Assembly (NCBI RefSeq): GCF_001447785.1
Contig: NW_015163096.1
Coordinates: 1,681,280 to 1,737,264, forward strand
Source of the DNA: Gekko japonicus
Taxonomy: Eukaryota
Reading direction: 5' to 3'
Length of the DNA: 55,985 bases
Positions 812-29,460 of this stretch are shown in pieces. The stretch's first letter is position 1; each line of letters begins with the position of its first letter. The notes beneath the pieces were generated by a model. The model had not been told where the DNA came from. It did no database searches and saw only the letters and a program-made list of their open reading frames with translations. The position numbers and the translations under genes are program-made.

Positions 812-945
812 ATAGGATTGCCAGCCTCCAGGTGGGGCCTGGAGTACTCCTGGAATTCCATCTGATCTCCAGACTGCAAAGATCAATTCCCCTGGAGGAA
901 ATAGGAGCTTTAGAGGGTGGGCTGTACGGCATCATATCCCCAATG
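812..945. mobile_element. Partial hAT-type MITE (TAGGGTTGCCA-terminus family)
   Basis: Starts 'taggattgccagcctccagg'; body matches the copies at 17960, 32833 and 11548. Confidence 0.7.
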
Positions 946-1021
946 ACCTCTTTCACCAACATGGTTGCATTATATTTCTCTCTGCACATAACAGACTTAA
1001 AAAACTTAATTTTCACCCAGC

Positions 1022-1445
1022 TAGGGTTGCCAGGTGTACTCACCTGACCAGCGGGGTGCTCTCTGGAAGTGCTGCCCCCCGACGTGATGACATCATCCAG
1101 AAGTGACGTCATCATGTTGGGGATGTTGTGGGTGATGCTCTGCTTTTTGGGCAAAACTCTATGGTGATGACCTCAAAACCATAGAGTTTTACCCAAAAAA
1201 CAGAGTGTCACCCCCAGCGTCCCCAACATGATGATGTCACCTGGAAGTGATGTCATCATGTCAGAGACACACTTCCATTTTACCTGGAAGATGGTTGGAG
1301 GAGTGCAGATTTGCAGGCAGGGGTTCTCCCGCTGGCCAACTGGCTGGCATTGGAAAGGAACCTGCCAAATCAGGGGATTCCCCCAACCCCACCAGGGGGC
1401 GGGGGATCCCTACACCCAACTCCAACTGACCTGGGGGCAATCCTA
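1022..1445. mobile_element. hAT-type MITE with long internal palindrome
   Basis: Termini 'tagggttgcca' and 'ggcaatccta'; internal imperfect inverted repeat ~1088-1166 / ~1178-1256. Confidence 0.75.
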
Positions 1446-1692
1446 TTTTGGGCTGCCCGAGAAAAGTTTCAACTACTAAAGCAATCAAGATTTCTCCATC
1501 AAGACCCTTTTGTATGTAACCCATGCTTTAAATTTCTACTGTTTGAAACAATTTACTAATCACTTACAAAAAGAACAAGGTGTCAGAGAACTGAGAATAG
1601 CATCTCTAATGCTTAGCCTGTTGCCTTCCTAATTTCATCATTTCACAGAAGTAATTTATTCAGCTACTAAAATAACATTTATGTATTATAAC

Positions 1693-2147
1693 CAGTGTTC
1701 CCTCTAAGCTGAGTTAGTGTGAGCAAGCTCACAGTTTTTTAGCCTCGGGCTCACACATTTTTGTCTCAGCTCAGGATTTATTTTTTTTTGTTTATTTATA
1801 AAATTTAAAATTTAAAAAACAGTCAGTAGCTATAAGTCGAAACAGCAGCAAAAAATAAAATCGGGAAGGGGGACACATTCACGATATCTGGGGAGTTTCC
1901 TCAATACACGTAATGAACTTGTGGATGAGCAGGAGCGTTCAGCCTTGAAGCAAATGTGACAGCCTCAATTGATGTGGAAATACTCTTAATTGGTTCAGTG
2001 GATGCAACCACGTCTCAGCTCAGGATGGATGGCTCCAGAACAAACTAATTTATGCAGCAGCTAAATCGCTCGCTCACAACATTAATGCCAGTAACTCACA
2101 AAGTAGAATTTTTGCTCACAAGACTCCACAGCTTAGAGGGAGCATTG
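1693..2147. mobile_element. hAT MITE interrupted by a LINE fragment
   Basis: TIR CAGTGTTCCCTCTAAGCTG...CAGCTTAGAGGGAGCATTG; perfect 8-bp TSD ATTATAAC (1685-1692, 2148-2155); uninterrupted sister copy at 24353. Confidence 0.9.
1778..2011 (-). mobile_element. 5'-truncated non-LTR retroelement 3' end (family unassigned)
   Basis: 15-bp TSD GTCTCAGCTCAGGAT (1763-1777, 2012-2026); AATAAA and A-rich tail on the minus strand. Confidence 0.8.
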
Positions 2148-3413
2148 ATTATAACTAGACATTATCAATCAAAATTGTGTTACCCTGGAATAATTCACCT
2201 CTACTGTACATAGTGTTGGCTGGGTCATTATCATGTTTGGGGGAGTATAATAGAGAGTTATATGAAACGATAAATGTACAACAGAAATAAACTTTCACTT
2301 TTTTTTAGTCTGTTTTTCCCCATGGCATATACTTGCTCTCTATATTATACACCTTGACTATTCCCTGACTGAAGTTATAGTTTTCACTCAATAAACTACA
2401 GCATGTATTCTAACAACAACAAAAAATGTAGAAGGAACCTCAGTGGTATGAACTGTTCCTACCAAAGGGAAAGAAAAAATCCTTTTCAAAAAGCAACATG
2501 ATATGCAATCCCTAGGTGACTCTTTTATTATCCTGTCTTATTATGAAAGACCTGAAATGGAAATTTATTATTGGCTGTTATTCTTTCTCTGATGACTCCA
2601 GATGCTACTGTCTGAAACAAAATGTAAGGGGAGGAGGAAGTGGGGGTTGAGCCCTGGAGACATAGCGCACAACATTTCTATCATAGGAGGGATAATCACA
2701 ATTTACTCTTCTGAGATAGAACTCCTTTATGGACCACTTTGTATATGGCAGGAGATTATTGATTCACCATCCATCAGAGATGGAAAGTTTTTTTTTTAGC
2801 CTGATAGCTTTATAGATAGATCTTTTCTCTCGGTGCACATCATAAAATTGTTCCTCATATAATGGGTTATTACTGCATGCAGAAATGGTATCCCAAATGT
2901 GAAAGTAATTTTGATTCGCCCTCACTCCTCCATAACAGTATATCTCTTATAATGCAAAGTGCATGATTTACCACAGCCAGCCTGCTTAAGATAACTTGGA
3001 CTTACAAAGAACACACAGGACTGCAATAAATTCAGCTAGAAAAAAGGTATTTTTTTCCATTTCAAATGAAATATGTTTAAATTTTTATAGAGCAAAGCAC
3101 ATTTCATGTAAAAGATTTCAGTTTCAACAAGATATTTCTATTCACAGAAAATATGACTCTCGGAGTCAAAACAGAAAACACTGGTTATTTTCATTGGCTT
3201 GTCCAAAGAAACACATCATACCAGAAATAAAATCCACTTCTAAATTACTTATTTTCAAATTAAATTGTCTTCTAAAAGATTATGACTGCAATCTGGAAAC
3301 TAGAGTTAGAAAGCTCCATTGTGTGGCTTACTCCTGAACTTACCAAAATCAATGAGGTAAAGTTCACCTTGTGACTACCACTGGGTGCTCACATGCCTAC
3401 AGGCAGTATGTCT

Positions 3414-4365
3414 GAGAGCCAGTTTGATGTAGTGGTTAAGAGCACAGACTCAAATCTGGGAGAACCGGGTTTGATTCCCCACTCCTTCACTTGCACCTGC
3501 TAGATGACCTTGGGCAAGCCATAGTTCTGGCACAGCTGTTCTTGAAAAAGAGCAGTTTCTGTCAGAGCTCTCTCAGCCCCACCTACCTCACACGGTGTCA
3601 CGGCTGCTTCTCAACCCAAGCATTTGGCCCCAGCAGAAGAGCAAAGGACTACCGGGGATGAGCATTTGGCCTAGCGGAAGACCTAAGTACTGCTGGGGAT
3701 GAGCTCCCGGCTCCTGACAGCCCTGCACCTGAAGCCACGGAAACTACTCCAGCAGCAGCTGAAGCAGGCCTATGCCGGAGCAACACACCCCGTGACTCAC
3801 CCCCACCGGTATCCCGTCTGCGGGAACAACGCCGACAGGACATGGCATCCTGGCAATGGGATGCGCGCATGCGCGGTAGGCACTTGTTTAGCCCTGAGTA
3901 CTACCAGGAGTCGGGACACCATCAGGGCATGCTAATGACCAACAGCCTTCCAGGCTATTTAGTTATCGCACTCACGCCAACTAGTTGTGCTAGCAACTAG
4001 CCATTTTGGATAAAGCTCTGCACTTCACCACCCATGTTCCAGTTCTTGCTCCTCGTCTTGACTCCTCATCTCCTGACCTCAGCTTGTATGACTCTGCTCA
4101 TGACCTGCAGCTCGGACTTCTGACTCTCTAGCTTCTGACTTCTGATTTGGACTTGGTCTCTCGATATTACTGCTTGCCCAGTTTTGACCTTGGGCTGCTT
4201 TTGGAGTCTCTTGCTGTTGCCTGGCCTAGTACCATGTTCGTGACACATGGTGTCTGTTGTGGGGAGGGGAAGGGAAAGGAGTTTGTAAGCCGCTCTGAGA
4301 CACCTTTAAGTAGTGAAGGGCAGGGTATAAATCCAATCTCTTCTCTTCTTCTTCTTCTTCTTCTA
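3414..4365 (+). mobile_element. Squam3-type SINE split by a solo LTR
   Basis: tRNA-like head 'gtagtggttaagagc...gggtttgattccc'; body resumes at 4246; (CTT)n tail; sister copies at 16437 and 46543. Confidence 0.85.
3596..4245. mobile_element. Solo LTR (Gypsy/ERV-type)
   Basis: Terminal inverted repeat TGTCACG...CGTGACA; 5-bp TSD CACGG/CATGG (one CpG transition); cleanly interrupts a SINE. Confidence 0.85.
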
Positions 4366-4639
4366 TGTTCCTCCATTTAACAAAAATAATGCATATATAA
4401 AACTACAGGTCAGGTGAAAATATGGCAGCCTAGCCCTGATAATAAATTGTCAATTCTTCTGAAGCGCAGAACCTGAGACTCAGGGAGCATAGCACAAGAG
4501 TTCAGTCATGGTTCCTGTCACAGCAGGCGGGAGCCTGAATGCATTAGCTCTTAAGCCTCTCCTCCTATTGCCATCCAGTGTAGAACCATCATCCTCTTTC
4601 TCATGTGTTTTTAAAAGAATTTATCACATTTTCCTATCT

Positions 4640-5480
4640 CAGGTAGCTCTAACTGGATATACAGTTCTTTCAGCAGCCCCAAGTAGAAGGGCAGGGTGAA
4701 GCACAGCAGTGTCCATTCCTGAATTATTCTTTCATTGTGGGTTCTTAGTGCAGACAGAAGCTGATATTGATACTACATACCTGGTGGCGGGCTCCAGGGT
4801 CAGGTTAGGGTTCCATTGGTTTACCATCCACCTAACGCCAGCAGACACCTTAGCTAAGCTGGCTGAGATGGTCTCCAGTTTGGGTTTGGGAATACCAATG
4901 GTTACAGTTCCTGGGGATTTCAAAATCCATGCAAGGTTGCCACTAGACAAGCTCCAGGCTTCACGGTAGATTGTCCCAGATTGTTACTACATCAACATAT
5001 GGGAAAGTTGAATCTACCTTTCTGTACTGAGAATATTTCTGGTGGGCTGACGAAGGAAGCAGAAGTGAAATTTCTGTCATGGTCAAGCTTTTTACCTGCT
5101 AAAGGTTCAGGCAAACTTGATACCTTCTCTCCACGGAGGTGAGGACCTGATTAAGAAAATCCATTCCCACAGACGTATGGATCCAACTGGTTTCCAAAAT
5201 GCTGTCAGGAACATTGAAAGCTTAACGGGCAACTTGACTGAGGACCTAATGAAGGACTAAAATGCCAGACTCTCAAGATCCTTGGATTTGGTTGTTCTTA
5301 GACATTGGTCATTCATAGACATACAGCGCCAGAACCTCTGGATACAAATGAGATGAGGGAGCAAAAGAGGACTGGGAGAACAGTGCTGACAGAAGTCTGA
5401 GGCCAAATCAGAGAGAATGCATTGCAGGGCTCATTTGAAGATCTATGAGGTGGCGCCAATGGTGGCTGTGCACTCCATTG
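4640..5480 (+). mobile_element. Degenerate L2 LINE, endonuclease and linker region
   Basis: Relic translation 'VTVPGDFKIH' resembles the APE motif GDFNIH; collinear with the downstream L2 RT relic. Confidence 0.55.
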
Positions 5481-5496
5481 TGGGCTACATCACTAT

Positions 5497-6154
5497 TGAG
5501 AGTTCCGAGGCTATAAAATTCCCACATTCAATGCAAGACGTTTCTCTGTTGGTACAAGGACAGGAAACAGGAAGACATTAGTTGCTCTCCAGTACTCCCC
5601 TCCAACCGATGACTCTCACAAGCATCCATTACTTAAGGCTTGGTTATGTAAATGTTTCTAGCCAGGAGAGAACACAGGGCCATCTCACACCCTAGTAGAA
5701 ATGTGACACCTACAGACTTAATGAGCCAGAATGCTAGATTGTACCTGTTTCTGGAAAGGACAGGAAGAGAAAGATTGATCTATAAGAGCCAGTTAACTTC
5801 CTTGGACACAAGAGTTTCGTTTTGCAAGGTCCATCTCAGCTGATTCCATCTCAATGGCTGCCATCACCACATCGAATTAACAAAGGGGCAGGCTACCTGG
5901 ACAAAGACTCAAGATGACCGACAGAACTTTAACTTTAAAGATCCTACCCTGGAACAACAGTCAGGGTTCATTTAGCTAAGGGACAGAGGACTGCGTATAC
6001 ACAGTTTAATTTGTAACCTTGCTCGATCCATTGTTGTGCAGATTATGTGTGTGTGGCATTTTCTTTTGAATAAATTTCTTACGATTTTTATTGCTGGAAA
6101 TGTCTCTGTAACCATGATATTGTAACCATGTTGTCTCTGTAACCCACTTGAACA
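5497..6154 (+). mobile_element. Possible old LTR relic
   Basis: Interrupts the L2; AATAAA near 6069 and a CA end near 6154; no convincing TSD found. Confidence 0.3.
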
Positions 6155-6649
6155 TGTTACTAAAAGAATGCCTGGAAAGGTAGGAGGCTGATCAATAAAG
6201 CACTAGGTCCCTGGAAGTGTGCAAGTGTGGTAAACTGTCCCTGCAAAGGCTAGTTGGAGCAAAACTAACAGATGTGGGTAGTAGGTGAACACTGTAAATG
6301 GCAACATAGACAGAGTGCTAGGAATGCTAGCCCTCTTCGTGGGGAACATTCTTATCAACCAGCTGGTTGCAGTGTAGCCTTTCTGGGTAGAAAGAAGCAA
6401 CAAGCACCTCTGGGAGTCAAGTGAACTTGGGAGAATGGGACACTGCCAAGCAGAAACCTGGAAGAGCTACTGAGTGTCTTGACCCTCCAGAGGACACAAA
6501 GAGGAATGGTGCACGTGGGTCAGTGGGGCATTCTGCGACAGTGGCAAAGGAAGCATCACCTTCTTCCACCACGGAATCTGCAAAATCTTGTCCAGCTAAA
6601 TTGTTTCAAATTGTTCAAAATGTAATGGTATCTAGGTAAGATGTGGTTG

Positions 6650-7301
6650 AACTGGATGTGGATATAGACTGTTGACACTGTTGTCAATTCTTTTCAGATT
6701 AAATCTCTTTGATCTGATCCCACTTGGATACTGATTTGGCTACATATCAAGGAGTAGACATAGGTCAGAAAATGTTTTTTTGAAATCTTTAAAGGAAACC
6801 ATTATTAGACCTTTACTGAAAACAATTACTGTCTGCAGACAATCCTACAAGCTACAAACTGATGTCTAATGTATTGTTCTTGGGCCAAGTGAGTGAATGG
6901 AAACTGGCAGAGAGCTACTTCAGACGATTCTGGGTGATGTATCTGCACCTGACCCATTTCAGTCTAGCTTCAGGCTAGCTATTGGGACCCAGACAGCGAA
7001 GGTAGCTCTGAGGGATGATTTCAGGTTACAACTAGACAGAAGAAATGATTCTGTGCTGATCCTTATTGATATATCAGCTGTGTTCAATACAGTGGATCCT
7101 GCCACTTTGTTCCATCATCTTCAAGCATATCAGAGTATTACAATGGCTTCAGGTTTCTGTGTGACAGAACATCCAGAGTACCGGGAGGAGATATGGAAAA
7201 CACTGCCTGCGAGTTGACATACGAGATGCCACAGGGATCTGTTCTAAACTCTATGTTGTTTAAAAAATATTTAAGACCTCTCAGAAAGATTGTTCATACC
7301 T
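6650..7301 (+). mobile_element. Degenerate L2 LINE RT region (left part, host of the L1 insertion)
   Basis: 'FQSSFRLAIGTQTAKVALRDD...LILIDISAVFNTVD' matches the L2 RT motif QSGFR..GTETAL..DD...LLDLSAAFDTVD; 'ccacagggatctgttct' corresponds to PQGSVL. Confidence 0.8.
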
Positions 7302-8235
7302 GAAGAGTAATGGCAATATCATCCGCATAGGCTTGGATTTTGTACTCTTGGTTTTTAACTTTGATCCCCTGTATTCGGTTATCTTTGCGGATATTTTCAC
7401 ATAGACCTTCCATAGTAAGGATAAATAGAAGCGGTGAAAGGGGACACCCTTGTCGCGTGCCCTTAAATATGTTTATTCCTGTAGTCAGATCTGAATTAAT
7501 TATTATATTCGCTTCTTGATTTCTGTAAATTGTTTCAATTACACTGATAAAGTCTTGCCCGCAATCTATTTCTTTTAGATTTTGGATCATATAGTCCCAG
7601 TTGACGTTATCGAACGCCTTTTCGGCGTCTATAAAAATTATTGCTAACTGCTTGCTTATATCTGTCTCACAGTACTCTAGAACATTCAAGATAGTTCTAA
7701 TGTTTTGCTTTACTTGCCGGTTGGGTAGAAATCCCGCCTGATCTGAGTGTATTAATTGTACCAGTATCTTCCTCATACGTTGGGCCATTATATAAGCGTA
7801 GATCTTATAATCCACGTTGAGTAATGATATAGGGCGGTAGTTCTTGATTTCTTTTTCATCAGTACCCTTTTTATGTATTAGTGAAATTAATGCACTATTC
7901 CAGGATCTTGGTGTTGCCTTTGTTTCTGGTATATCTGTTACTATCTGTTTATAAACTGAGCTCAGCTCATCTTGGAAAGTTGTATAAAATTCAGAGGGTA
8001 GCCCGTCAGGGCCAGGGGCTTTATTTTTCTTTTGGTTTTTAATTGCTCCCGCTATTTCTGTCGATGTTATTTTTTGGTTTAAGATATTTTTTTGGTCCTC
8101 ATTTAATTTCTTTGTGTGTACTCTGTTCTTTAAGAAGGTCTGGATAGCGTCTGTATCAATAGTTTCCTTCCTATATAATTTGGTGTAAAAATTCTTAGCA
8201 ATATCTTTCAGGTCATCTATTCTATGCTTATCTTC
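7302..8235 (-). pseudogene. Inverted L1 ORF2 segment (linker/Z region through RT YADD motif)
   Basis: Open minus frame reads '...NKAPGPDGLPSEFY...NYRPISLLNVDYK...GTRQGCPLSPLLF...YADDIAITL'. Confidence 0.93.
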
Positions 8236-8585
8236 ATGCCGACGACCTAGTTTTTATTTTAGAAGAACCCCTAGAGTCAATTGAACATTTATTAAATACC
8301 CTTCGTATATATGGGCAAGTAGCAGGTCTGAAAATTAACCTACAGAAATCTAAAATACTAACGAAAAACTGTTCAAAAGAAACTGAGGATTTGTTAGCAA
8401 ATAAATCTGGATTCATAATTAGTAAAAAAGTTAAACACCTAGGAATCTGGTTAACAAATAAATGTAGTGCTCTATTTGATAACAACTATAAGAGAGTCCT
8501 GACGGAGATAAAAACCGACTTAGAAAAATGGAAAGACCTACAGCTATCCTTGATGGGAAGGGTGGCAACTATTAAAATGTGTATT
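8236..8585 (+). pseudogene. RT fragment from a second, divergent L1 family
   Basis: Open frame 'ADDLVFILEEPLESIEHLLNTLRIYGQVAGLKINLQKSKILTKNCS...LQLSLMGRVATIKMCI'; homologous to but clearly different from 9097-9445. Confidence 0.9.
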
Positions 8586-8607
8586 CCGCCCTATATCATT
8601 ACTCAAC

Positions 8608-10728
8608 GTGGATTATAAGATCTACGCTTATATAATGGCCCAACGTATGAGGAAGATACTGGTACAATTAATACACTCAGATCAGGCGGGATTTCTACCC
8701 AACCGGCAAGTAAAGCAAAACATTAGAACTATCTTGAATGTTCTAGAGTACTGTGAGACAGATATAAGCAAGCAGTTAGCAATAATTTTTATAGACGCCG
8801 AAAAGGCGTTTGATAACGTCAACTGGGACTATATGATCCAAAATCTAAAAGAAATAGATTGCGGGCAAGACTTTATCAGTGTAATTGAAACAATTTACAG
8901 AAATCAAGAAGCGAATATAATAATTAATTCAGATCTGACTACAGGAATAAACATATTTAAGGGCACGCGACAAGGGTGTCCCCTTTCACCGCTTCTATTT
9001 ATCCTTACTATGGAAGGTCTATGTGAAAATATCCGCAAAGATAACCGAATACAGGGGATCAAAGTTAAAAACCAAGAGTACAAAATCCAAGCCTATGCGG
9101 ATGATATTGCCATTACTCTCCTGGACCCGTTGCAATCTGTCCCACCCCTGCTAGAGGTGATGCATGATTTTGGGCATTTATCGGGCCTGAAAATAAATAA
9201 GACTAAGACAAAAATACTAACGAAAAATTGTGGCCCAGCCCTAGAGAGAAAACTGCAAGAAATAACCGATTTTGGTTTAGAAAAGAACGTGAAATATCTT
9301 GGGATAAACATTACGAATAGAACAAGTACATTGATACCAGGTAATTACGATACGCTCTTGACCCAGGTTAAAAAGGATTTAGAAAATTGGTCCAAGCTTC
9401 AACTGTCTCTTATGGGGAAAGTGGCAGTGATTAAAATGGCTATACTTCCCAGGATACTATTTCTATTTCAAAACATCCCAGTACTCAATAATTACAAGTT
9501 TATAAAAATTATGGATAAGTTAACATCAGATTTTATTTGGGGGGGAAAAAAACCCAGAATAAAGATTTATTCTTTACAAGAAAAAACAAAGAAGGGCGGA
9601 TTGGCAGTGCCGAATTGGCGACTATACTATCAGGCCGCGGCACTGACATGGTTACGTGAATGGATATTGCTCAGAAATCAGAGGATTTTAAGCCTAGAAG
9701 GCCACAACCTAATGGCAGGGTGGCACTATTTTTTAAGCGTAGGAACAGAAAAACATTCCTACTTTTGTCAACACCGAATCAGAGCCTGTTTAATAAAAAT
9801 ATGGAAGGAAATTAAAACTAACTACTATGACAAAAAACCAAGATGGGTTGCCCCCCTGGAGGCTATCTCATTACCAACTTTGATGACGGAAACCCGAACT
9901 TTAAGTTACGAAGTCTTACTAAACAAGAATAATCAACTAAAATCACAGGAGGCCTTGCAAGCCCAACAGGTCAAACTAACATGGTGGGAAAGAAACCAAT
10001 TAACATCTAAATATAACAAAGATATTCAAACAGGGATAAATAAAAACTTTACAGTACTAGACAAAATTTTATTGGGTCCAGAAGTAAAAATGATAGGCAA
10101 AATATACGCCTTTCTATTAGAAAATAGACCACAAGATAAAAATAAGAAAACACCCCTGACAAAATGGAATAATAATATAGGGAAAATAATTGACCCACGA
10201 AAATGGGATGGGATATGGAAAAATATGAGACAACTAAAGGCGGTATCACTAAAAGAAAACCTGTTTAAGATCTGTCATCGCTGGTACTTAACCCCTGCTA
10301 GATTGGCCAAATTTTACCCCGGTAGTAACAATAAATGCTGGAAATGTAAAGCACAAATTGGGTCGTTTTTCCATGTTTGGTGGTCCTGCGATGCGGTAAA
10401 GAAATACTGGAAAGAGGTACATCAGGTGATCACCCAGGCAACAAAGTTGCAAATAACACTGGACCCTGAAATATTTTTATTAAATATTCTACCCGAGAGT
10501 TGGGAAAAAAAAGATAAACACGTCCTGACAAATTTGTTAGCAGCAGCTAGAATCGTATTAGCCAGTTACTGGAAAAGAGATGAAATTCCGGATAGACTAG
10601 ATTTTATAAACAAAGCAATTGAGGTGATAGAAATGGACAATCTAACACAAAAACTCCACGGAAGGAAAAACTCTGTATTTTCAGCTATGTGGTCAAATGT
10701 TTATGATTGGATCGATAAGAATGTATAA
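8608..10728 (+). CDS. L1 ORF2 C-terminal part: RT domain and Cys-rich C-terminus; no endonuclease and no true start
   Basis: Uninterrupted 706 codons with DAEKAFD, QGCPLSPLLF, YADD, KYLG and CWKC...HVWWSC. The listed start is an internal GTG; L1 homology begins at 8586. Confidence 0.93.
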   Translation: MDYKIYAYIMAQRMRKILVQLIHSDQAGFLPNRQVKQNIRTILNVLEYCETDISKQLAIIFIDAEKAFDNVNWDYMIQNLKEIDCGQDFISVIETIYRNQEANIIINSDLTTGINIFKGTRQGCPLSPLLFILTMEGLCENIRKDNRIQGIKVKNQEYKIQAYADDIAITLLDPLQSVPPLLEVMHDFGHLSGLKINKTKTKILTKNCGPALERKLQEITDFGLEKNVKYLGINITNRTSTLIPGNYDTLLTQVKKDLENWSKLQLSLMGKVAVIKMAILPRILFLFQNIPVLNNYKFIKIMDKLTSDFIWGGKKPRIKIYSLQEKTKKGGLAVPNWRLYYQAAALTWLREWILLRNQRILSLEGHNLMAGWHYFLSVGTEKHSYFCQHRIRACLIKIWKEIKTNYYDKKPRWVAPLEAISLPTLMTETRTLSYEVLLNKNNQLKSQEALQAQQVKLTWWERNQLTSKYNKDIQTGINKNFTVLDKILLGPEVKMIGKIYAFLLENRPQDKNKKTPLTKWNNNIGKIIDPRKWDGIWKNMRQLKAVSLKENLFKICHRWYLTPARLAKFYPGSNNKCWKCKAQIGSFFHVWWSCDAVKKYWKEVHQVITQATKLQITLDPEIFLLNILPESWEKKDKHVLTNLLAAARIVLASYWKRDEIPDRLDFINKAIEVIEMDNLTQKLHGRKNSVFSAMWSNVYDWIDKNV

Positions 10729-10908
10729 GAACATACAAGATAATTTGATTGTAATCATAATCGATATATATAGATTTTTGTTAAGCTTTAAGGATCATTT
10801 TAATGTGCAACATGGTGGGTTTATGGGGATCACGGGTGTTGGATGTACCACTACTTATACTTTAATAAAAAACTAACAATAAAAAAAAAAGAAAGATTGT
10901 TCATACCT

Positions 10909-11540
10909 TTGGGGTTTGGAGTCTTCAGCATATATCAGCCTCCAGTGCTGCCGTCTTGGTTCTTGGCCATTATCCTGAGACCATGTTAAAGTGGCTAAGG
11001 ATAAACAATCTGAAGTTAAATCCAGATAGAACAGAGGTGATACTGGCTGGAAAAGCTGGTGTCCTGGAGGCATTCCATTAATTATGCTAGATAGGGTTCT
11101 ATGAAGGCTAGTAGAATCTGTAGGCCCTAGGACCCATCCTTATGTATGGGGAAAAACAGATCATGTTGCTGCTATGAATGCTCCTTTTCAGTTACATCTG
11201 GCACAGGGACTCTGTCCATCTGAACATAGTTGATCTGACCACATTGATTCATGGTACTGTAACCCTGAGACTAGATTAGTCTAATACAACCTATGTGGAG
11301 CTGCCTTTGAAGGCAACTTGGAAACTGCAGCTGGTCGAGAATGCAACAGCTTATCTACTGACAAAATGAGATCTGGGACTGTAAGGGAGAGAATCTTGCC
11401 TGTGGCAGTTCCCATCTTTGTGGAACTTGCTGCCAGATGAGCTAAGAGCTGCCTCTTCCCTTGTATAGTCTAGATGGCAGTGTAAATCAACACTGTTTAT
11501 GTGAGCTTTCACATGACTGTTATTTATTTATTTACTTCGT
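10909..11540 (+). mobile_element. Degenerate L2 LINE, right part to the 3' end
   Basis: Continues after the TSD; typical L2 3' motifs 'agactagattag' and 'ggaaactgcagctggt...gaatgc'; (TATT)n tail. Confidence 0.75.
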
Positions 11541-13489: not shown

Positions 13490-13960
13490 CCATTTTGAAA
13501 CAACTACATTGGCTATCAGTCTGTTTCCGAGTTCAATTCAGAATGCTGGTTATGACCTTTAAAGCCCTTCGTCAGTCAAATATATGAAGGGCAATCTCCT
13601 TCTACATGTTCCTGTGTACCAACTATGGTCATCAGGTAGATCTGTTGGCTCTCCCATCACTTAGAGTGGCCCATCTGGCATCCTTTTCTAGGCCTTTTCC
13701 ATCATGGCTCCCATTCTGTGGAATGTGCTTCCTGACGAAGTGAAGGGCCCCCTCCCTGGAGACCTTCAAGAGGCACTGCAAGGCCTGCCTGTTTGCCAGG
13801 GCTTATGAGGGGGTTTAAATGGCAGGAATCTTTTAAGGGGGGGGGATTTTGGGCTTGCTATCTTATCTTTGGTTTTAGCTGGTGATGTAAGCTGGTATTG
13901 TAAGCTGCCTTGAACCAAGAGAAAATGCAAGATATGATTTAATAAATAAAACAAATAAAT
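13490..13960 (+). mobile_element. L2 LINE 3' end relic
   Basis: 'ctacattggct...caattcagaatgctggttatgacctttaaagccct' is a typical L2 3' motif; A-rich tail. Confidence 0.75.
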
Positions 13961-14258
13961 CAAGTCTATCCCTACTAAATAGGGAATGGGTGGGTGTATA
14001 GGAAGAGAGACCCTTTTTTGTGCCCCCTGTACGGGATTTTTTTATTGCAGCTTCTATAAACTACAAAGAAACAAGGAAGAGTATACTACCAACTACAGGG
14101 GAAAGAAAAGAAAACCTCTAAAACCCAATGGTGGTCATTCACAATGCTTACAACATTGGCTTATAATACATTGGCTTATACTTGCTACCTTAAGTAAGTA
14201 CATAATTCTGTTTTGCTTATAATAGCATCTCCAGCAAAAATGACTAAAGAGAAATGCT

Positions 14259-15260
14259 TCAAAATAGTTTAAAATAGGATCTAGAGAAAATCATAACCCA
14301 TTTTTTCTCCTTTTTGTTTCTCAAACAATAGCTTAATTTAGGGGCTGCAACCTCCAGTTCAGAAACTGAGTCCTCATCGGAAGGTGCCAGTGCTCCTTCT
14401 TCTTCACTTCCCTTGCTGCTGCCATCTTCATCTTTATCCTTCTCCCCTGCTGGACCGGCATGTTGATGTAAAAATTTGCGTGCCTTTGCAACAGAGTCAA
14501 TTCTTTCTTTCTTGTCTTTAAATTTGAAGAGCATGCCTTCAGGGACAGCCCATATGTAGGGAATGTTATTTTGCTGTAAAAACAGTGCCGAGTCTCTGTA
14601 TTTCTTTTTCTTCTTCCTTATTTCAAATGGAACATCCTTCAAAACTTTTATTTCTTTGTCTTTGTTCTTCAGGTTGGCTCCATTTGTTGCTTTCAAAACT
14701 TGATCTTTTACTTGTCTCCTGAAGAATCTCACCACAATCTCGCCGGGCAGATTATTCTTTCTTATGAAGTCAGAATATGATCTATATATCATATCTACTT
14801 CATTTTGTAAAAACTCCGCTTTTAAATCTGCAACCGGACCCAGTAAATTGCACATAGTCTGTTTTAGATCTTCCCCTCTTGCTTCAGGGACCCCCTGAAA
14901 TCTTAAGATGTAGCTTGCTTTTTCCATTTGCAGCTGTAGTAGTTGCGCCTCCTCAGTTGCTTGCTTTTTTTCCATCCCCTGCATTTGCTTCTGCAGCTTT
15001 TGTGTGTTGGCATCCACTTCTTTAAGCTCTTGCTCCATTTTTTCTGTCTTCTTAGTAGTTTCATTTAGTTGGCTTTGTTGTGCATTGAATTTTGAATGGA
15101 ACGATGTCATTTGCTCCAGCAGAGGGCGCAGAGCCTCAGTCAGCATAGTTTGGAAATCTTTGGTAGTGTCCTGTCTAGGACCAGAGCTCGCTGGGCTGGC
15201 ATTTCCAGCAGAGAATTTCAGTTTCGATTGCTTGTCCTTCTCCTTCTTCTTCGGTGCCAT
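14259..15260 (-). CDS. L1 ORF1p-like RNA-binding protein (coiled coil, RRM, CTD)
   Basis: ATG start with basic N-terminus MAPKKKEK; heptad-rich segment; RRM-like 'ILRFQGVPE' and 'LPGEIVVRF'; CTD-like 'KVLKDVPFEIRKK...IPYIWAVPEGMLFKF'; acidic tail; no stops over 333 codons. Confidence 0.9.
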   Translation of the reverse strand: MAPKKKEKDKQSKLKFSAGNASPASSGPRQDTTKDFQTMLTEALRPLLEQMTSFHSKFNAQQSQLNETTKKTEKMEQELKEVDANTQKLQKQMQGMEKKQATEEAQLLQLQMEKASYILRFQGVPEARGEDLKQTMCNLLGPVADLKAEFLQNEVDMIYRSYSDFIRKNNLPGEIVVRFFRRQVKDQVLKATNGANLKNKDKEIKVLKDVPFEIRKKKKKYRDSALFLQQNNIPYIWAVPEGMLFKFKDKKERIDSVAKARKFLHQHAGPAGEKDKDEDGSSKGSEEEGALAPSDEDSVSELEVAAPKLSYCLRNKKEKKWVMIFSRSYFKLF

Positions 15261-15765
15261 GTTTGGGATTTGTTTACTTTTTAGAAATTGTTATCAAAGT
15301 CTCAAAATCCTTTAAATTCGCTTGGTAAGTTCTCAAAAGTTCTTTATTTTTAGTCCGCTCACTTTTTCATTCCCCCCCTTTAGTATCGTTTATCAGTCCG
15401 CTTTTCTTTCGTGGGGGAGTTCCCCCCCTCGTTCTATCAAGGGGAGGCTTTCAGGTTGCTTTCTGGTGTCTTTGCTTATACAAACACTCACTTTTCCGTG
15501 TAGATCTCGCTTTTCTCGATTAAATCCCCCAGCCACCAAGCACTTTCCTAGTGTGCTTTCCCATGTCCATTTCGGAAAACAGCAGCGGGACCATCGGGGC
15601 ATGGATTGCCTCCCCCCTTCACCAGCCATTTGCTGGAGGAAGGGCCCTCCTAGTGCCCCATGGCTATGGAGCCCATTGCAAGGGCTCCGGGGGGGGATGC
15701 ATAAGATTGCACCCCCTCCCATCCACCGATTCACTGTCCACGTCTCCCAGAGCTCCGAGAGATCG

Positions 15766-15798
15766 TGGCCGCCATTAGGAAGTCAAAACCGGAAGTCT
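15766..15798 (-). promoter_or_regulatory. L1 internal promoter 5' motifs (ETS-like and YY1-like)
   Basis: Minus strand begins AGACTTCCGGTTTTGACTTCCTAATGGCGGCC: ACTTCCGG (ETS/GABP-like) and AATGGCGG (YY1-like) directly inside the TSD. Confidence 0.65.
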
Positions 15799-15963
15799 GG
15801 AAGAGGGACCCTTGAAAAGGGAAGCAGATGGATGTGCCAGCAAGATATAAGGGAGTATAAACTGGGAGATTAAAGAGTCCAAGGACTGAGAGCAGGGTAT
15901 CTGTTGTGGGGAGGGTGCTATGAAACTCAGCTGCTCTGAAACTCCTCTGGGTAGTGAAGGGTG

Positions 15964-27461: not shown

Positions 27462-28431
27462 AGCATCAGGTACTAAATTTGCCCTGGGACACCCCGACAA
27501 AATTAAAGTGACTGTGTTGCTAGAGGGGAAGCTTTGCAAGATGGAGCTGGACACAGGGTCCTCCATCTCCATCATATCTGAAGAGACTCTCCGGAGGCTC
27601 TGTCCACAAGGCCCCCCCCCGCCTGAGGCCCGCAGGCTTCACCCTCCGGGACTTTCAGAAGAACAAGGTGGCCATTAAGGGGTGGAGCAAATTCCATGTG
27701 AAATACCGGCACTTTGAGGAACACTTGGACTTATTGGTGGTGGAAGGGCAGCTCACCAGCTTGCTTGGACTGTCTTGGTTTGCGCCCTTAGGTTTCAAAG
27801 TAACGGGGGTGCACCACGTGTGGCCTACAGACTTCAGAAACGTGTGTCAGGAGATCCTGGCTGTCTTCAACAGGACACTCAGACGGTACACGGGTCCCCC
27901 AGTATTGCTCCAACTCAACCACAAGGTGTGCCCCATCCGCCTCAAGGCCCGGAGAGTCCCAGTCACGCTCAAGCCCAAAACTGAGGCGGAATTAGACCAT
28001 TTGTTGGTGCAAGGTGTTTAGAGCCGGTTCCCCACGTCACCTGGGAGACCCCCATCGTAACCCGGATTAAGCCAAATGGGGATGTCCGCATCTGCATGGA
28101 TTATAAATGCACAATCAACAAGGTGCTGGAAGACCACGCTTATCCAGTGCTGGTCATCAGCCACGTTGTAGTGGCATTGGCCAGGTCCAAAATCTTCGGG
28201 AATCTGGACTTGGCCCAAGCCTATCAGCAACTCCCAGTGGATGAACCAAACCATTATCACACACCAGGGTGCGTTCAGAGTCAAGCAGTTACAGTTCGGG
28301 GTGAGTGTGGCTCCGGGAATCTTTCAAAATCTGATGGACTCTCTTTTGAAAGGAATCCCTGGGGTCCAGCCCTTTTTCGATGTTTTGATCACCGCCCCCT
28401 CGGAGGAGGACTTCGCCACCCACCTACGCAC
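27462..28431 (+). pseudogene. Ty3/Gypsy pol fragment (aspartic protease and RT), frameshifted, no LTRs
   Basis: 'KMELDTGSSISIISE', 'PIRLKARRVP', 'VRICMDYKCTIN', 'LDLAQAYQQL', 'LQFGVSVAPGIFQ'. Confidence 0.9.
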
Positions 28432-29460
28432 TAGAGTTGTCTTATGTTCTGCTGAAATCACTTAATAAACTATGAGCTGATCACTACACGCGTCTAGAAC
28501 CCAGTATATTTCAACAAGTCTCCCTCATCCAATAATTATGTATTTGATTCTTCTTACCTAAATGTTGGTCCATGGGGTCGCGAAGAGTCGGACTCGACTG
28601 TGCGACTGAACAACAACAACAACAAACCTAAATGTAGAACTTTACATTTATCTCTTTTGAAATTCATTGTCAGTTTTAGCCCAGTTTTCCAGCCTATCAA
28701 GATCATCCCGTATCTTGACTCTGTCTTCTTCTGTATTTGCTACCCCTCCCAATTTAGTATCATCTGTAAATTTAATGAGCACCCCCTCTATTCCTTCATC
28801 CAAGTCAATTATAAAGATGTTGAATAACACAGAGTCCAGGATAGATTTCTAAGGCACTCCACTGGTCACTCCTCTATAAAAGGATGAGGAACCATTAACA
28901 AGCACTCTTTGAGTATGAGCTGTCAATCACTTACAAATCCACCTAACAGTAATAGAATCCAAACCACATTTTATCAACTCATCAACAAGAATATCATGTG
29001 GGACCTTATCAAACGCTTTACTGAAACCAAGATAAACTACATCCAGAGCACTTCCCAGGTTCAACAAGGTAGTAACTCTCACAAAAAAGGAGATAAGGTT
29101 ACTCTGACATGACTTGTTCCTGAGAATCCATGCTGGCTCTTAGTAATGCTCAAGGACTGCTAAATGCTCAAGGACTGACTGATTATTTGTTCTAAAACTT
29201 TTCCAGGTATAGACTTCACACTGAAGGTCAGTAGTTACCTGGATCCTCCTTTTTTCCTTTCTTGAAGATGGGGACAACAGCTGCCCGCCTCCAATCTTCT
29301 GGCACCTCACTTGTTCTCCAAGAATTCTCAAAAATAATGGACAGAGGCTCTGAAATTATACCAGCAAGTTCCTTAAGTACCCTTGGATGCAATTTGTTTG
29401 GCCCTGAGGACTTAATTTTATTTAAAGGAATTAGGTGTTTATGTACCACCCCTGTGCCTA
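28432..29460 (-). mobile_element. CR1 LINE RT region relic
   Basis: 'LFNIFIIDLDEGIEGVLIKFTDDTKLGG' and 'HPRVLKELA...VPEDWRRAAVVPIFKKGKKEDPGNY'. Confidence 0.92.
28566..28625 (+). mobile_element. 60-bp RTE-BovB 3' tail insertion
   Basis: GGTCCATGGGGTCGCGAAGAGTCGGACTCGACTG...(CAA)n; perfect 10-bp TSD ACCTAAATGT (28556-28565, 28626-28635). Confidence 0.88.

What the first reader, a model, noticed from the sequence alone, without database searches (positions are those of the whole stretch)
14001..15813. Self-contained ORF1-only L1 (half-L1-like) with intact ORF, promoter, poly(A) signal and TSD
Seen: a 1.78-kb unit bounded by a 15-bp TSD (1 mismatch) at an EN-like site (CCTT/GA). It has a full 5' end (ETS/YY1-like motifs), an intact 333-aa ORF1 with an acidic C-terminal extension, a short T-rich 3'UTR, AATAAA and an A-tail, and no trace of ORF2. 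The TSD implies it integrated in this form rather than being broken at its ends later. Established: HAL1 elements are non-autonomous ORF1-only L1 derivatives, described mainly from mammals. Inference: either a squamate HAL1-like family that borrows ORF2 in trans, or a one-off retrocopy of a prematurely polyadenylated L1 mRNA. An expressed free ORF1p could also modulate L1 activity.
Basis: partly seen in the sequence, partly recalled or inferred. Interest (0 to 1): 0.75.

Follow-up and report, generated by a model that had tools for sequence, protein, structure and literature searches.

The report
Reptile half-LINE-1 carrying only ORF1
A 1.8-kb jumping-gene copy in what is likely a lizard or snake genome keeps the LINE-1 start, its RNA-binding first gene and a polyadenylation end but has no detectable copying-enzyme gene, and it is probably one of many such "half-L1" copies that would borrow the enzyme from complete LINE-1s, a way of life already known from mammals.

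Summary
The observation mostly holds. There is a 15-bp TSD (1 mismatch), a lizard-clade-1-like 5' terminus, an open 333-aa ORF with the L1 ORF1p fold (Foldseek E 3e-10), AATAAA, and no detectable ORF2.

Three corrections. The A-tail is only 4-6 A and follows a 17-nt extension. The acidic C-terminus is ordinary for this ORF1 group (32 of 41 homologues). A TSD does not exclude an internal deletion after insertion.

In a public DNA run, ORF1 and the 3'-terminal ~130 nt are both repeated; 54 distinct contigs carry the 17-nt extension with a base this copy lacks. The two ends have similar depth, which favours a short HAL1-like family mobilised by ORF2p in trans (0.65). The ~140 nt joining ORF1 to that tail were not shown to be multi-copy, so a one-off ORF2 deletion stays open (0.24). 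Selection on ORF1 was inconclusive, and no expression of this copy was seen.

HAL1 is a known kind. My searches found no squamate example, but Repbase and Dfam could not be searched. This scan noted ORF1-only retroposons before on other DNA. Verdict: new member of a known kind.

The parts
15799..15813 (.). Target-site duplication at the element's 5' side; the opposite-strand nick site reads CCTT/GA
   Evidence: contig record 8 of run X1 spans 15667-15958 with 0 differences
15770..15798 (-). 5' terminus matching the lizard clade-1 L1 start motif
15261..15798 (-). 5'UTR, 538 nt, CpG o/e 0.59 against 0.28 for the window; presumed internal promoter (inferred)
   Evidence: repeated in run X1, bin depth 0.9-8 thousand against about 80 for single-copy contigs
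14259..15260 (-). ORF1, 333 aa: coiled coil (helix aa 33-115), RRM (about aa 118-208), CTD (about aa 212-267), disordered acidic tail; last ~13 aa possibly read-through
14016..14258 (-). 3' region, 243 nt, T-rich, with a 13-nt tandem duplication (14168-14180 and 14153-14165); no ORF2 remains detected
14149..14287 (-). Stretch that joins the ORF1 end to the shared 3' tail; not shown to be multi-copy (the open question)
   Evidence: bin 14194-14267 depth 628, no RNA reads; 5-10 bp of overlap from neighbouring bins would explain the excess
14041..14046 (-). AATAAA polyadenylation signal, followed by 4 A
14020..14036 (-). 17-nt extension after the signal, shared with other copies (possibly an old 3' transduction fixed in the lineage; inferred)
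   Evidence: 54 contigs and 42 of 43 RNA reads at 14032 show a base other than this copy's
14016..14019 (-). Short A-tail (4 A, 6 with the two A of the TSD)
14001..14015 (.). Target-site duplication at the element's 3' side
   Evidence: contig record 1 of X1 (13828-14084) and record 9 of X2 (13750-14365) span it with 0 substitutions

Best explanation
This is a complete insertion of an L1-derived element that has an L1 5' end, an open ORF1 and a polyadenylation signal but no detectable ORF2, and it is probably one copy of a non-autonomous, HAL1-like family that would be copied by the ORF2 protein of a complete L1. Shown: the anatomy, the TSD, the ORF1p fold, and that ORF1 and the 3'-terminal ~130 nt are repeated elsewhere. 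Inferred: the 5'UTR drives a ~1.8-kb transcript; its own ORF1p trimers coat the RNA in cis; an ORF2p supplied in trans nicks a pyrimidine/purine junction (CCTT/GA here) and reverse-transcribes from the A-tail, leaving the 15-bp duplication. The founder likely arose when an autonomous clade-1 L1 lost ORF2 and its ORF1 was joined to an L1-type 3' end.
For: Run X1 (DNA contigs): contigs across the two flank junctions have depth 74 and 86. Inside the unit, many distinct contigs carry bases this copy lacks: 54 at 14032 (inside the 17-nt extension), 72 at 14050, 16 at 14080, 10 at 14090, 7 at 14100, 18 at 14346 and 23 at 15579. At two alleles a locus, 54 contigs mean about 27 or more loci with this 3' terminus (inference). 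Depth at 14032 and 14080 is 0.94 and 0.91 of the median over the 23 ORF1 rows, and the 3' peak is 1.28 times the ORF1 peak. In two autonomous anole families all copies outnumber full-length ones 144:24 and 75:22 (PMC3787681 passage), so a 3' excess of about 3-6 would be expected from a 6-kb parent. The 3' region fits a clade-1 3'UTR and not a spacer. The table of best-supported joints shows none that skips between 14100 and 14300 (15 of 24 rows shown). An ORF this long stays open in only 2.6% of simulations at 10% neutral divergence, while most laid contigs are 90-95% alike, which points to divergence gained in an active lineage. An autonomous-type L1 with an open 697-codon ORF2 part, a 19-bp TSD and a similar TTCT/GA nick site lies 3 kb away, so L1 ORF2p has been active in this genome.
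Against: The stretch 14149-14287 is not shown to be repeated. Bin 14194-14267 has depth 628 (about 8 times single copy), but 5-10 bp of overlap from the neighbouring bins would give that, and RNA run X21 has no reads there. No contig from another locus was seen to run from ORF1 into the tail. The tool states that summed contig depth is no copy number. The 85% cut-off penalises non-coding DNA and so lowers the 3' depth, which biases the ratio towards my reading. In X21 the 3' end is 2.7 times (14032) and 5 times (14050) the median of the ORF1 rows (43 and 81 against 16 reads), nearer to the autonomous expectation, though 3' bias of RNA libraries could also cause it. The listed differences from other copies show no purifying selection: 8 synonymous of 23, expected 27%, p = 0.28 (only 40 of 439 rows were shown). 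Only 14 of 608 loose-end rows were shown, so a continuation of other copies into ORF2 could be hidden. No second full copy with its own TSD was seen.
Confidence: 0.65

Rival explanations
1. One-off internal deletion. An autonomous clade-1 L1 lost ORF2 in this copy only, by splicing or a template jump during reverse transcription or by deletion after insertion, which joined the ORF1 end to the parent's own 3'UTR. The repeated ends belong to the autonomous parent family.
For: The depth dip falls just where such a junction would lie (14194-14267). A TSD survives an internal deletion. Rearranged L1 insertions occur here: the neighbour at 7283-10908 is inverted, duplicated and chimeric, and one X1 contig joins 14342 to 15622 (table 5c). 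The RNA run shows a 3' excess of 2.7-5.
Against: 3' and ORF1 depths in the DNA run are about equal. Similar dips occur in the 5'UTR (1,368 and 922), where no junction is supposed. No contig of this locus of 136 nt or more is listed across 14085-14707 in X1, although a unique junction should assemble as one (weak: 8 of the X1 pieces were shown).
Confidence: 0.24
2. Retrocopy of an L1 transcript polyadenylated early, within the inter-ORF spacer.
For: The tail is very short, and cleavage about 21 nt after AATAAA is the spacing of an ordinary polyadenylation site (established knowledge, recalled). A stretch at 14203-14180 loosely recalls the start of an L1 endonuclease (recalled, no call supports it).
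Against: Anole clade-1 L1s have a spacer of 0-110 nt or overlapping ORFs, and clade-2 spacers are G-rich. The 243 nt here are T-rich like a 3'UTR and hold no endonuclease match. The terminal 17 nt lie on 54 distinct contigs, as would be expected of an end with many flanks.
Confidence: 0.07
3. A domesticated or regulatory ORF1 gene (L1TD1-like) that restrains L1.
For: The ORF is open, and the filled site is present in runs under two organism labels (X1, X2). The precedent L1TD1 is discussed in PMC4161310 (passage).
Against: The TSD and both mobile ends are intact; relatives are many; no selection signal; 1 of 2,813 laid RNA reads is 99% or more alike.
Confidence: 0.02
4. Assembly artefact (a collapsed full-length L1).
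For: The window has N gaps, one 150 nt beyond the 5' TSD. X2 may be the source of the assembly.
Against: One X2 contig runs from the flank through the tail and the stop codon into ORF1 (13750-14365) with 0 differences, and X1 holds both flank junctions.
Confidence: 0.02

Closest known systems
HAL1 (half-L1) of mammals (Smit 1999; Bao and Jurka 2010, not held here; known through passages of PMC5753468, PMC5786205 and PMC3627910)
   Same: L1-derived, encodes ORF1p only, keeps 5' and 3' parts, is presumed to use ORF2p in trans; HAL1s arose several times independently.
   Different: The host is very likely a squamate: all 10 named homologue clusters of 20 looked up are gecko, snake, monitor or fence lizard. 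The parent is lizard clade-1-like, so the origin would be independent of the mammalian families. Family status and long-term ORF1 conservation are not yet shown.
Lizard clade-1 L1 of Anolis (Boissinot and Sookdeo 2016, PMC5381506; sections 7, 9, 10, 11, 13 and supplement passages read)
   Same: 5'-terminal motif, ORF1 length and coiled coil-RRM-CTD layout, T-rich 3'UTR of 194-570 nt, AATAAA end.
   Different: No ORF2; 5'UTR 538 nt against 792-1465 nt; 17-nt extension after the signal; 1.8 kb against about 6.4 kb.
HeT-A (Jockey clade) and Ag-Sponge (CR1 clade), ORF1-coding non-autonomous LINEs (PMC5786205 passage)
   Same: One ORF1-type protein, reverse transcriptase borrowed.
   Different: Other LINE clades, insect hosts, unrelated ORF1 type.
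L1TD1 (PMC4161310 passage)
   Same: A free-standing L1 ORF1-derived coding sequence.
   Different: L1TD1 is a domesticated host gene; this element keeps its TSD and mobile ends and has many relatives.

Membership tests
HAL1-type non-autonomous L1 | Encodes an L1-clade ORF1p | tested here: met
   profile E 9e-15 and Foldseek E 3e-10 to human L1 ORF1p; 17 of 50 aligned members hit Pfam Transposase_22, this protein itself does not
HAL1-type non-autonomous L1 | No ORF2 | tested here: met
   best tblastn E 0.22; no endonuclease or RT family in 4 post-ORF1 stretches; the first ~30 aa of ORF2 were not available as a query
HAL1-type non-autonomous L1 | L1-like 5' end and polyadenylated 3' end | tested here: met
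   the tail is only 4-6 A
HAL1-type non-autonomous L1 | Insertion hallmarks of L1 target-primed reverse transcription (TSD, pyrimidine/purine nick site) | tested here: met
   15-bp TSD; the CCTT/GA site departs from the recalled human consensus TTTT/AA but resembles TTCT/GA of the neighbouring L1
HAL1-type non-autonomous L1 | Many independent insertions with the same ORF1-to-3'-end junction | tested here: inconclusive
   both ends are repeated at similar depth, but the junction 14149-14287 is not shown to be repeated; no genome is held
HAL1-type non-autonomous L1 | ORF1 coding capacity kept under purifying selection across copies | tested here: inconclusive
   8 of 23 listed differences are synonymous, p = 0.28; the open frame is unlikely at 10% neutral divergence
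HAL1-type non-autonomous L1 | Mobilisation in trans by L1 ORF2p | not testable with these tools
   needs a retrotransposition assay; indirect support from the TSD and the neighbouring L1
Named mammalian HAL1 families (Repbase) | Sequence descent from a mammalian HAL1 or L1 lineage | tested here: not met
   about 18-20% identity to human ORF1p; the named closest relatives are squamate. It works like HAL1 but is not a member of those families
Autonomous lizard clade-1 L1 | 5' terminus GACTTCCGGT...ATGGCG | tested here: met
   (spacer 12 against 9 nt)
Autonomous lizard clade-1 L1 | ORF2 with endonuclease and reverse transcriptase | tested here: not met
Domesticated ORF1 gene (L1TD1-like) | Conserved and expressed at one orthologous locus | tested here: inconclusive
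   filled site under two organism labels; no reads assignable to this copy in X21; X22 laid no reads and is no test

The most novel reading that the evidence does not exclude
An undescribed reptile HAL1-type family, born independently from lizard clade-1 L1, with hundreds of copies. It would outnumber typical autonomous lizard L1 families because at 1.8 kb it escapes the selection against full-length L1 reported in anoles, while still making ORF1p that could mix with, and tax or inhibit, the helper's particles.
Probability: 0.4. Interest if true: 0.5.

Novelty: new member of a known kind. Interest (0 to 1): 0.32.

Why it matters
If the family is real, it extends the ORF1-only parasite strategy from mammals to squamates as one more independent origin. 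That would suggest that keeping ORF1 in cis while borrowing ORF2p is a recurrent solution among L1s. It would also give a natural test of length-dependent selection on L1 in reptiles: a short element with a promoter and ORF1 separates a cost of length from a cost of transcription or of ORF1p. The protein misses Pfam's L1 models, and several homologues are annotated as apolipoprotein-, myosin- or trichohyalin-like, so such elements are easy to miss or misname. The mechanism itself is not new.

Tried and rejected
No whole genome is held, so the genome-wide BLAST was not possible.

Searches for other copies found nothing, as expected for a vertebrate repeat, and are no evidence either way: the protein in metagenome contigs and viral contigs, and the 3'-end motif in the same two collections. 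The window holds no second copy. The word-indexed protein search found nothing with the single protein and 2 hits with an alignment.

Expression: no RNA holder was listed. X22 laid 0 reads and is no test. X21 reads fall on both strands about equally and are mostly 85-95% alike, so they come from other copies.

A 3'-terminal RNA hairpin was considered and rejected: z-scores -0.04 and -0.56 against shuffles. Homology of the 3' region to the neighbouring L1's 3'UTR was rejected: score 29 against a shuffle mean of 29.5. Rfam gave 3 matches far below their gathering scores. The bacterial promoter scan does not apply. No tRNA was found. No host gene was identified: 2 weak hits in 83 stop-free stretches, 83 of the 88 listed; short exons would be missed.

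The ORF1 tree is a quick tree only. It pairs this protein with the unnamed P0001 (SH-aLRT 98) on a long stem; deeper placement is unsupported, so I draw no rate conclusion. An empty allele was not seen among the 15 of 24 joints shown; contigs drop rare variants. No complex prediction was run.

Full report
OBSERVATION. The unit lies on the minus strand between two 15-bp direct repeats with one mismatch, 15799-15813 and 14001-14015. They are the only such pair around the ends and the only two matches in the window, and 3 of up to 20,000 random window pairs hold a repeat as good. From the 5' end there follow a terminus that fits the lizard clade-1 L1 motif of PMC5381506, a 538-nt CpG-enriched leader, an open 333-codon ORF and a 243-nt T-rich region with AATAAA at 14046-14041. 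After the signal come 4 A, a 17-nt extension, and only 4 A before the TSD, which begins with two more A. The locus is not a collapse: a contig of run X2 runs from the flank through the stop codon into the ORF without a difference, and run X1 holds both flank junctions. X2 may be the source of the assembly.

THE PROTEIN. Alone it escapes Pfam's L1 models and hits human ORF1p only at E 0.007. The full HMMER scan found 411 relatives at E 0.001 or better, the best 40% identical. I aligned it with 49 relatives, nearly all among the top 75 hits. The profile hits human ORF1p at E 9e-15. The model shows a long helix, an RRM and a CTD, and its top 11 Foldseek hits are human L1 ORF1p entries. Of 20 clusters looked up, 10 carry names and all 10 are squamates, so the host is very likely a lizard or snake (inference). 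One relative, P0023, is predicted as ORF1 run together with an endonuclease-like stretch (my reading of the sequence), so this ORF1 group includes autonomous L1s. The acidic tail is usual in the group (32 of 41). The closest relative ends about 13 residues earlier in the alignment, so the hydrophobic end of this ORF may be read-through. No ORF2 remains were detected.

FAMILY OR SINGLE EVENT. No genome is held, so the one lay of public runs (4 of the 24 listed) is the main evidence. In X1, contigs across the flank junctions have depth 74 and 86. ORF1 bins have 8,000-112,000, 5'UTR bins about 900-8,000, and the 3'-terminal positions 14032 and 14080 about 13,000. The tool warns that summed depth is no copy number, so I use it only as a relative measure and lean on counts of distinct contigs that carry a base other than this copy's: 54 inside the 17-nt extension, 7-16 along the distal 3' region, 18 near the ORF end and 23 at one 5'UTR position. 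Both ends are therefore repeated. Depth at the 3' terminus is 0.91-0.94 of the ORF1 median, whereas autonomous anole families have 3.4-6 times more copies than full-length ones (PMC3787681 passage). That favours a short element. Against this: the identity cut-off lowers non-coding depth; the RNA run shows a 3' excess of 2.7-5; and the stretch 14149-14287 is not shown to be repeated, since its lowest bin (628) could come from 5-10 bp of overlap. A spike of about 240,000 at 14050 suggests that the ~30 nt around the signal are shared with a far larger set of L1 ends, and that only a subset carries the 17-nt extension (inference). The 23 listed coding differences show no excess of synonymous changes, but they are a small, selected part of 439 rows and mix subfamily with private changes.

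MECHANISM. Most likely (0.65) this is a copy of a non-autonomous, HAL1-like family. Shown: anatomy, fold, TSD, repeated ends. Inferred from the established L1 pathway and the HAL1 passages read: transcription from the 5'UTR, ORF1p acting in cis, ORF2p borrowed in trans, target-primed reverse transcription at a pyrimidine/purine junction. An L1 with an open 697-codon ORF2 part, a 19-bp TSD and a similar nick site lies 3 kb away; its 3'UTR is unrelated, so it shows ORF2p activity and is not the parent. The main rival (0.24) is loss of ORF2 in this copy alone, which a TSD cannot exclude. Early polyadenylation in a spacer is unlikely (0.07), because clade-1 L1s have almost no spacer and the region reads like a 3'UTR. 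Domestication and artefact get 0.02 each.

COMPARISON AND NOVELTY. It works like HAL1 as far as tested. It is not a member of a named mammalian HAL1 family, and two defining features, many insertions with one junction and selection on ORF1, came out inconclusive. Seven literature searches and a search of 12 of 13 supplementary files of PMC6050309 showed no squamate HAL1. Bao and Jurka 2010 is not held, Repbase and Dfam could not be searched, and most subscription papers are outside the library, so such an entry may exist. Papers seen: PMC5381506 (abstract, five sections, supplement passages); PMC5753468, PMC5786205, PMC3787681, PMC3627910, PMC4161310 and PMC5203782 (passages only). Earlier notes of this scan describe ORF1-only retroposons in fungi, a protist and other genomes; none matched this sequence or genome, and they are not evidence here.

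VERDICT. A real, well-formed ORF1-only L1 insertion, probably a member of an undescribed squamate HAL1-like family: a new member of a known kind, interest 0.32.

Noticed in passing
window 7283-10908: A second, complex L1 insertion with a 19-bp perfect TSD (7283-7301 and 10890-10908). It has an inverted ORF2 piece (7302-8251, minus strand), about 340 nt from a different L1 family (64% identical to the matching part of the main piece), and then an open 697-codon ORF2 end with 3'UTR and A-tail. The inverted and the main piece share a 534-bp inverted duplication at 99.8%. It looks like twin priming plus a template switch to another family's RNA.
   Followed up: partly
table 5c, window 14342 and 15622: One X1 contig (depth 48.5) joins 14342 to 15622 with 11 letters between: possibly another locus of this family that has lost almost all of ORF1 and part of the 5'UTR.
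   Followed up: no
window 14020-14036: The 17-nt extension after AATAAA is shared by other copies, and nearly all of them differ from this copy at 14032. It may be an old 3' transduction that marks the lineage and would make a good search tag.
   Followed up: partly
window 14298-14300 and 14259-14297: Codon 321 (Trp) lies where the closest homologue ends; the following hydrophobic residues may be read-through of a lost stop in this copy.
   Followed up: partly
window 14001/15813 and 7283/10908: Both L1-type insertions have a nick site ending in T/GA (CCTT/GA and TTCT/GA), not the human TTTT/AA; only two cases.
   Followed up: no
P0003, P0006, P0007, P0023, P0033, P0049: Squamate L1 ORF1 sequences are annotated in public databases as apolipoprotein A-IV-like, myosin-6-like or trichohyalin-like, or are joined into UBE2E2 and PRDM9 gene models.
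   Followed up: no
window 13500-13960, 15893-15963 and 6897-7283 / 10909-11400: Both L1-type elements sit next to or inside older repeats: a decayed LINE-like stretch left of the ORF1-only unit, a very high-depth short repeat to its right, and a decayed RT-bearing element interrupted by the second L1 (weak RVT_1 hit).
   Followed up: no
window 28000-28460: Weak reverse-transcriptase match (RVT_1, E 0.001), probably a decayed LTR-element fragment.
   Followed up: no
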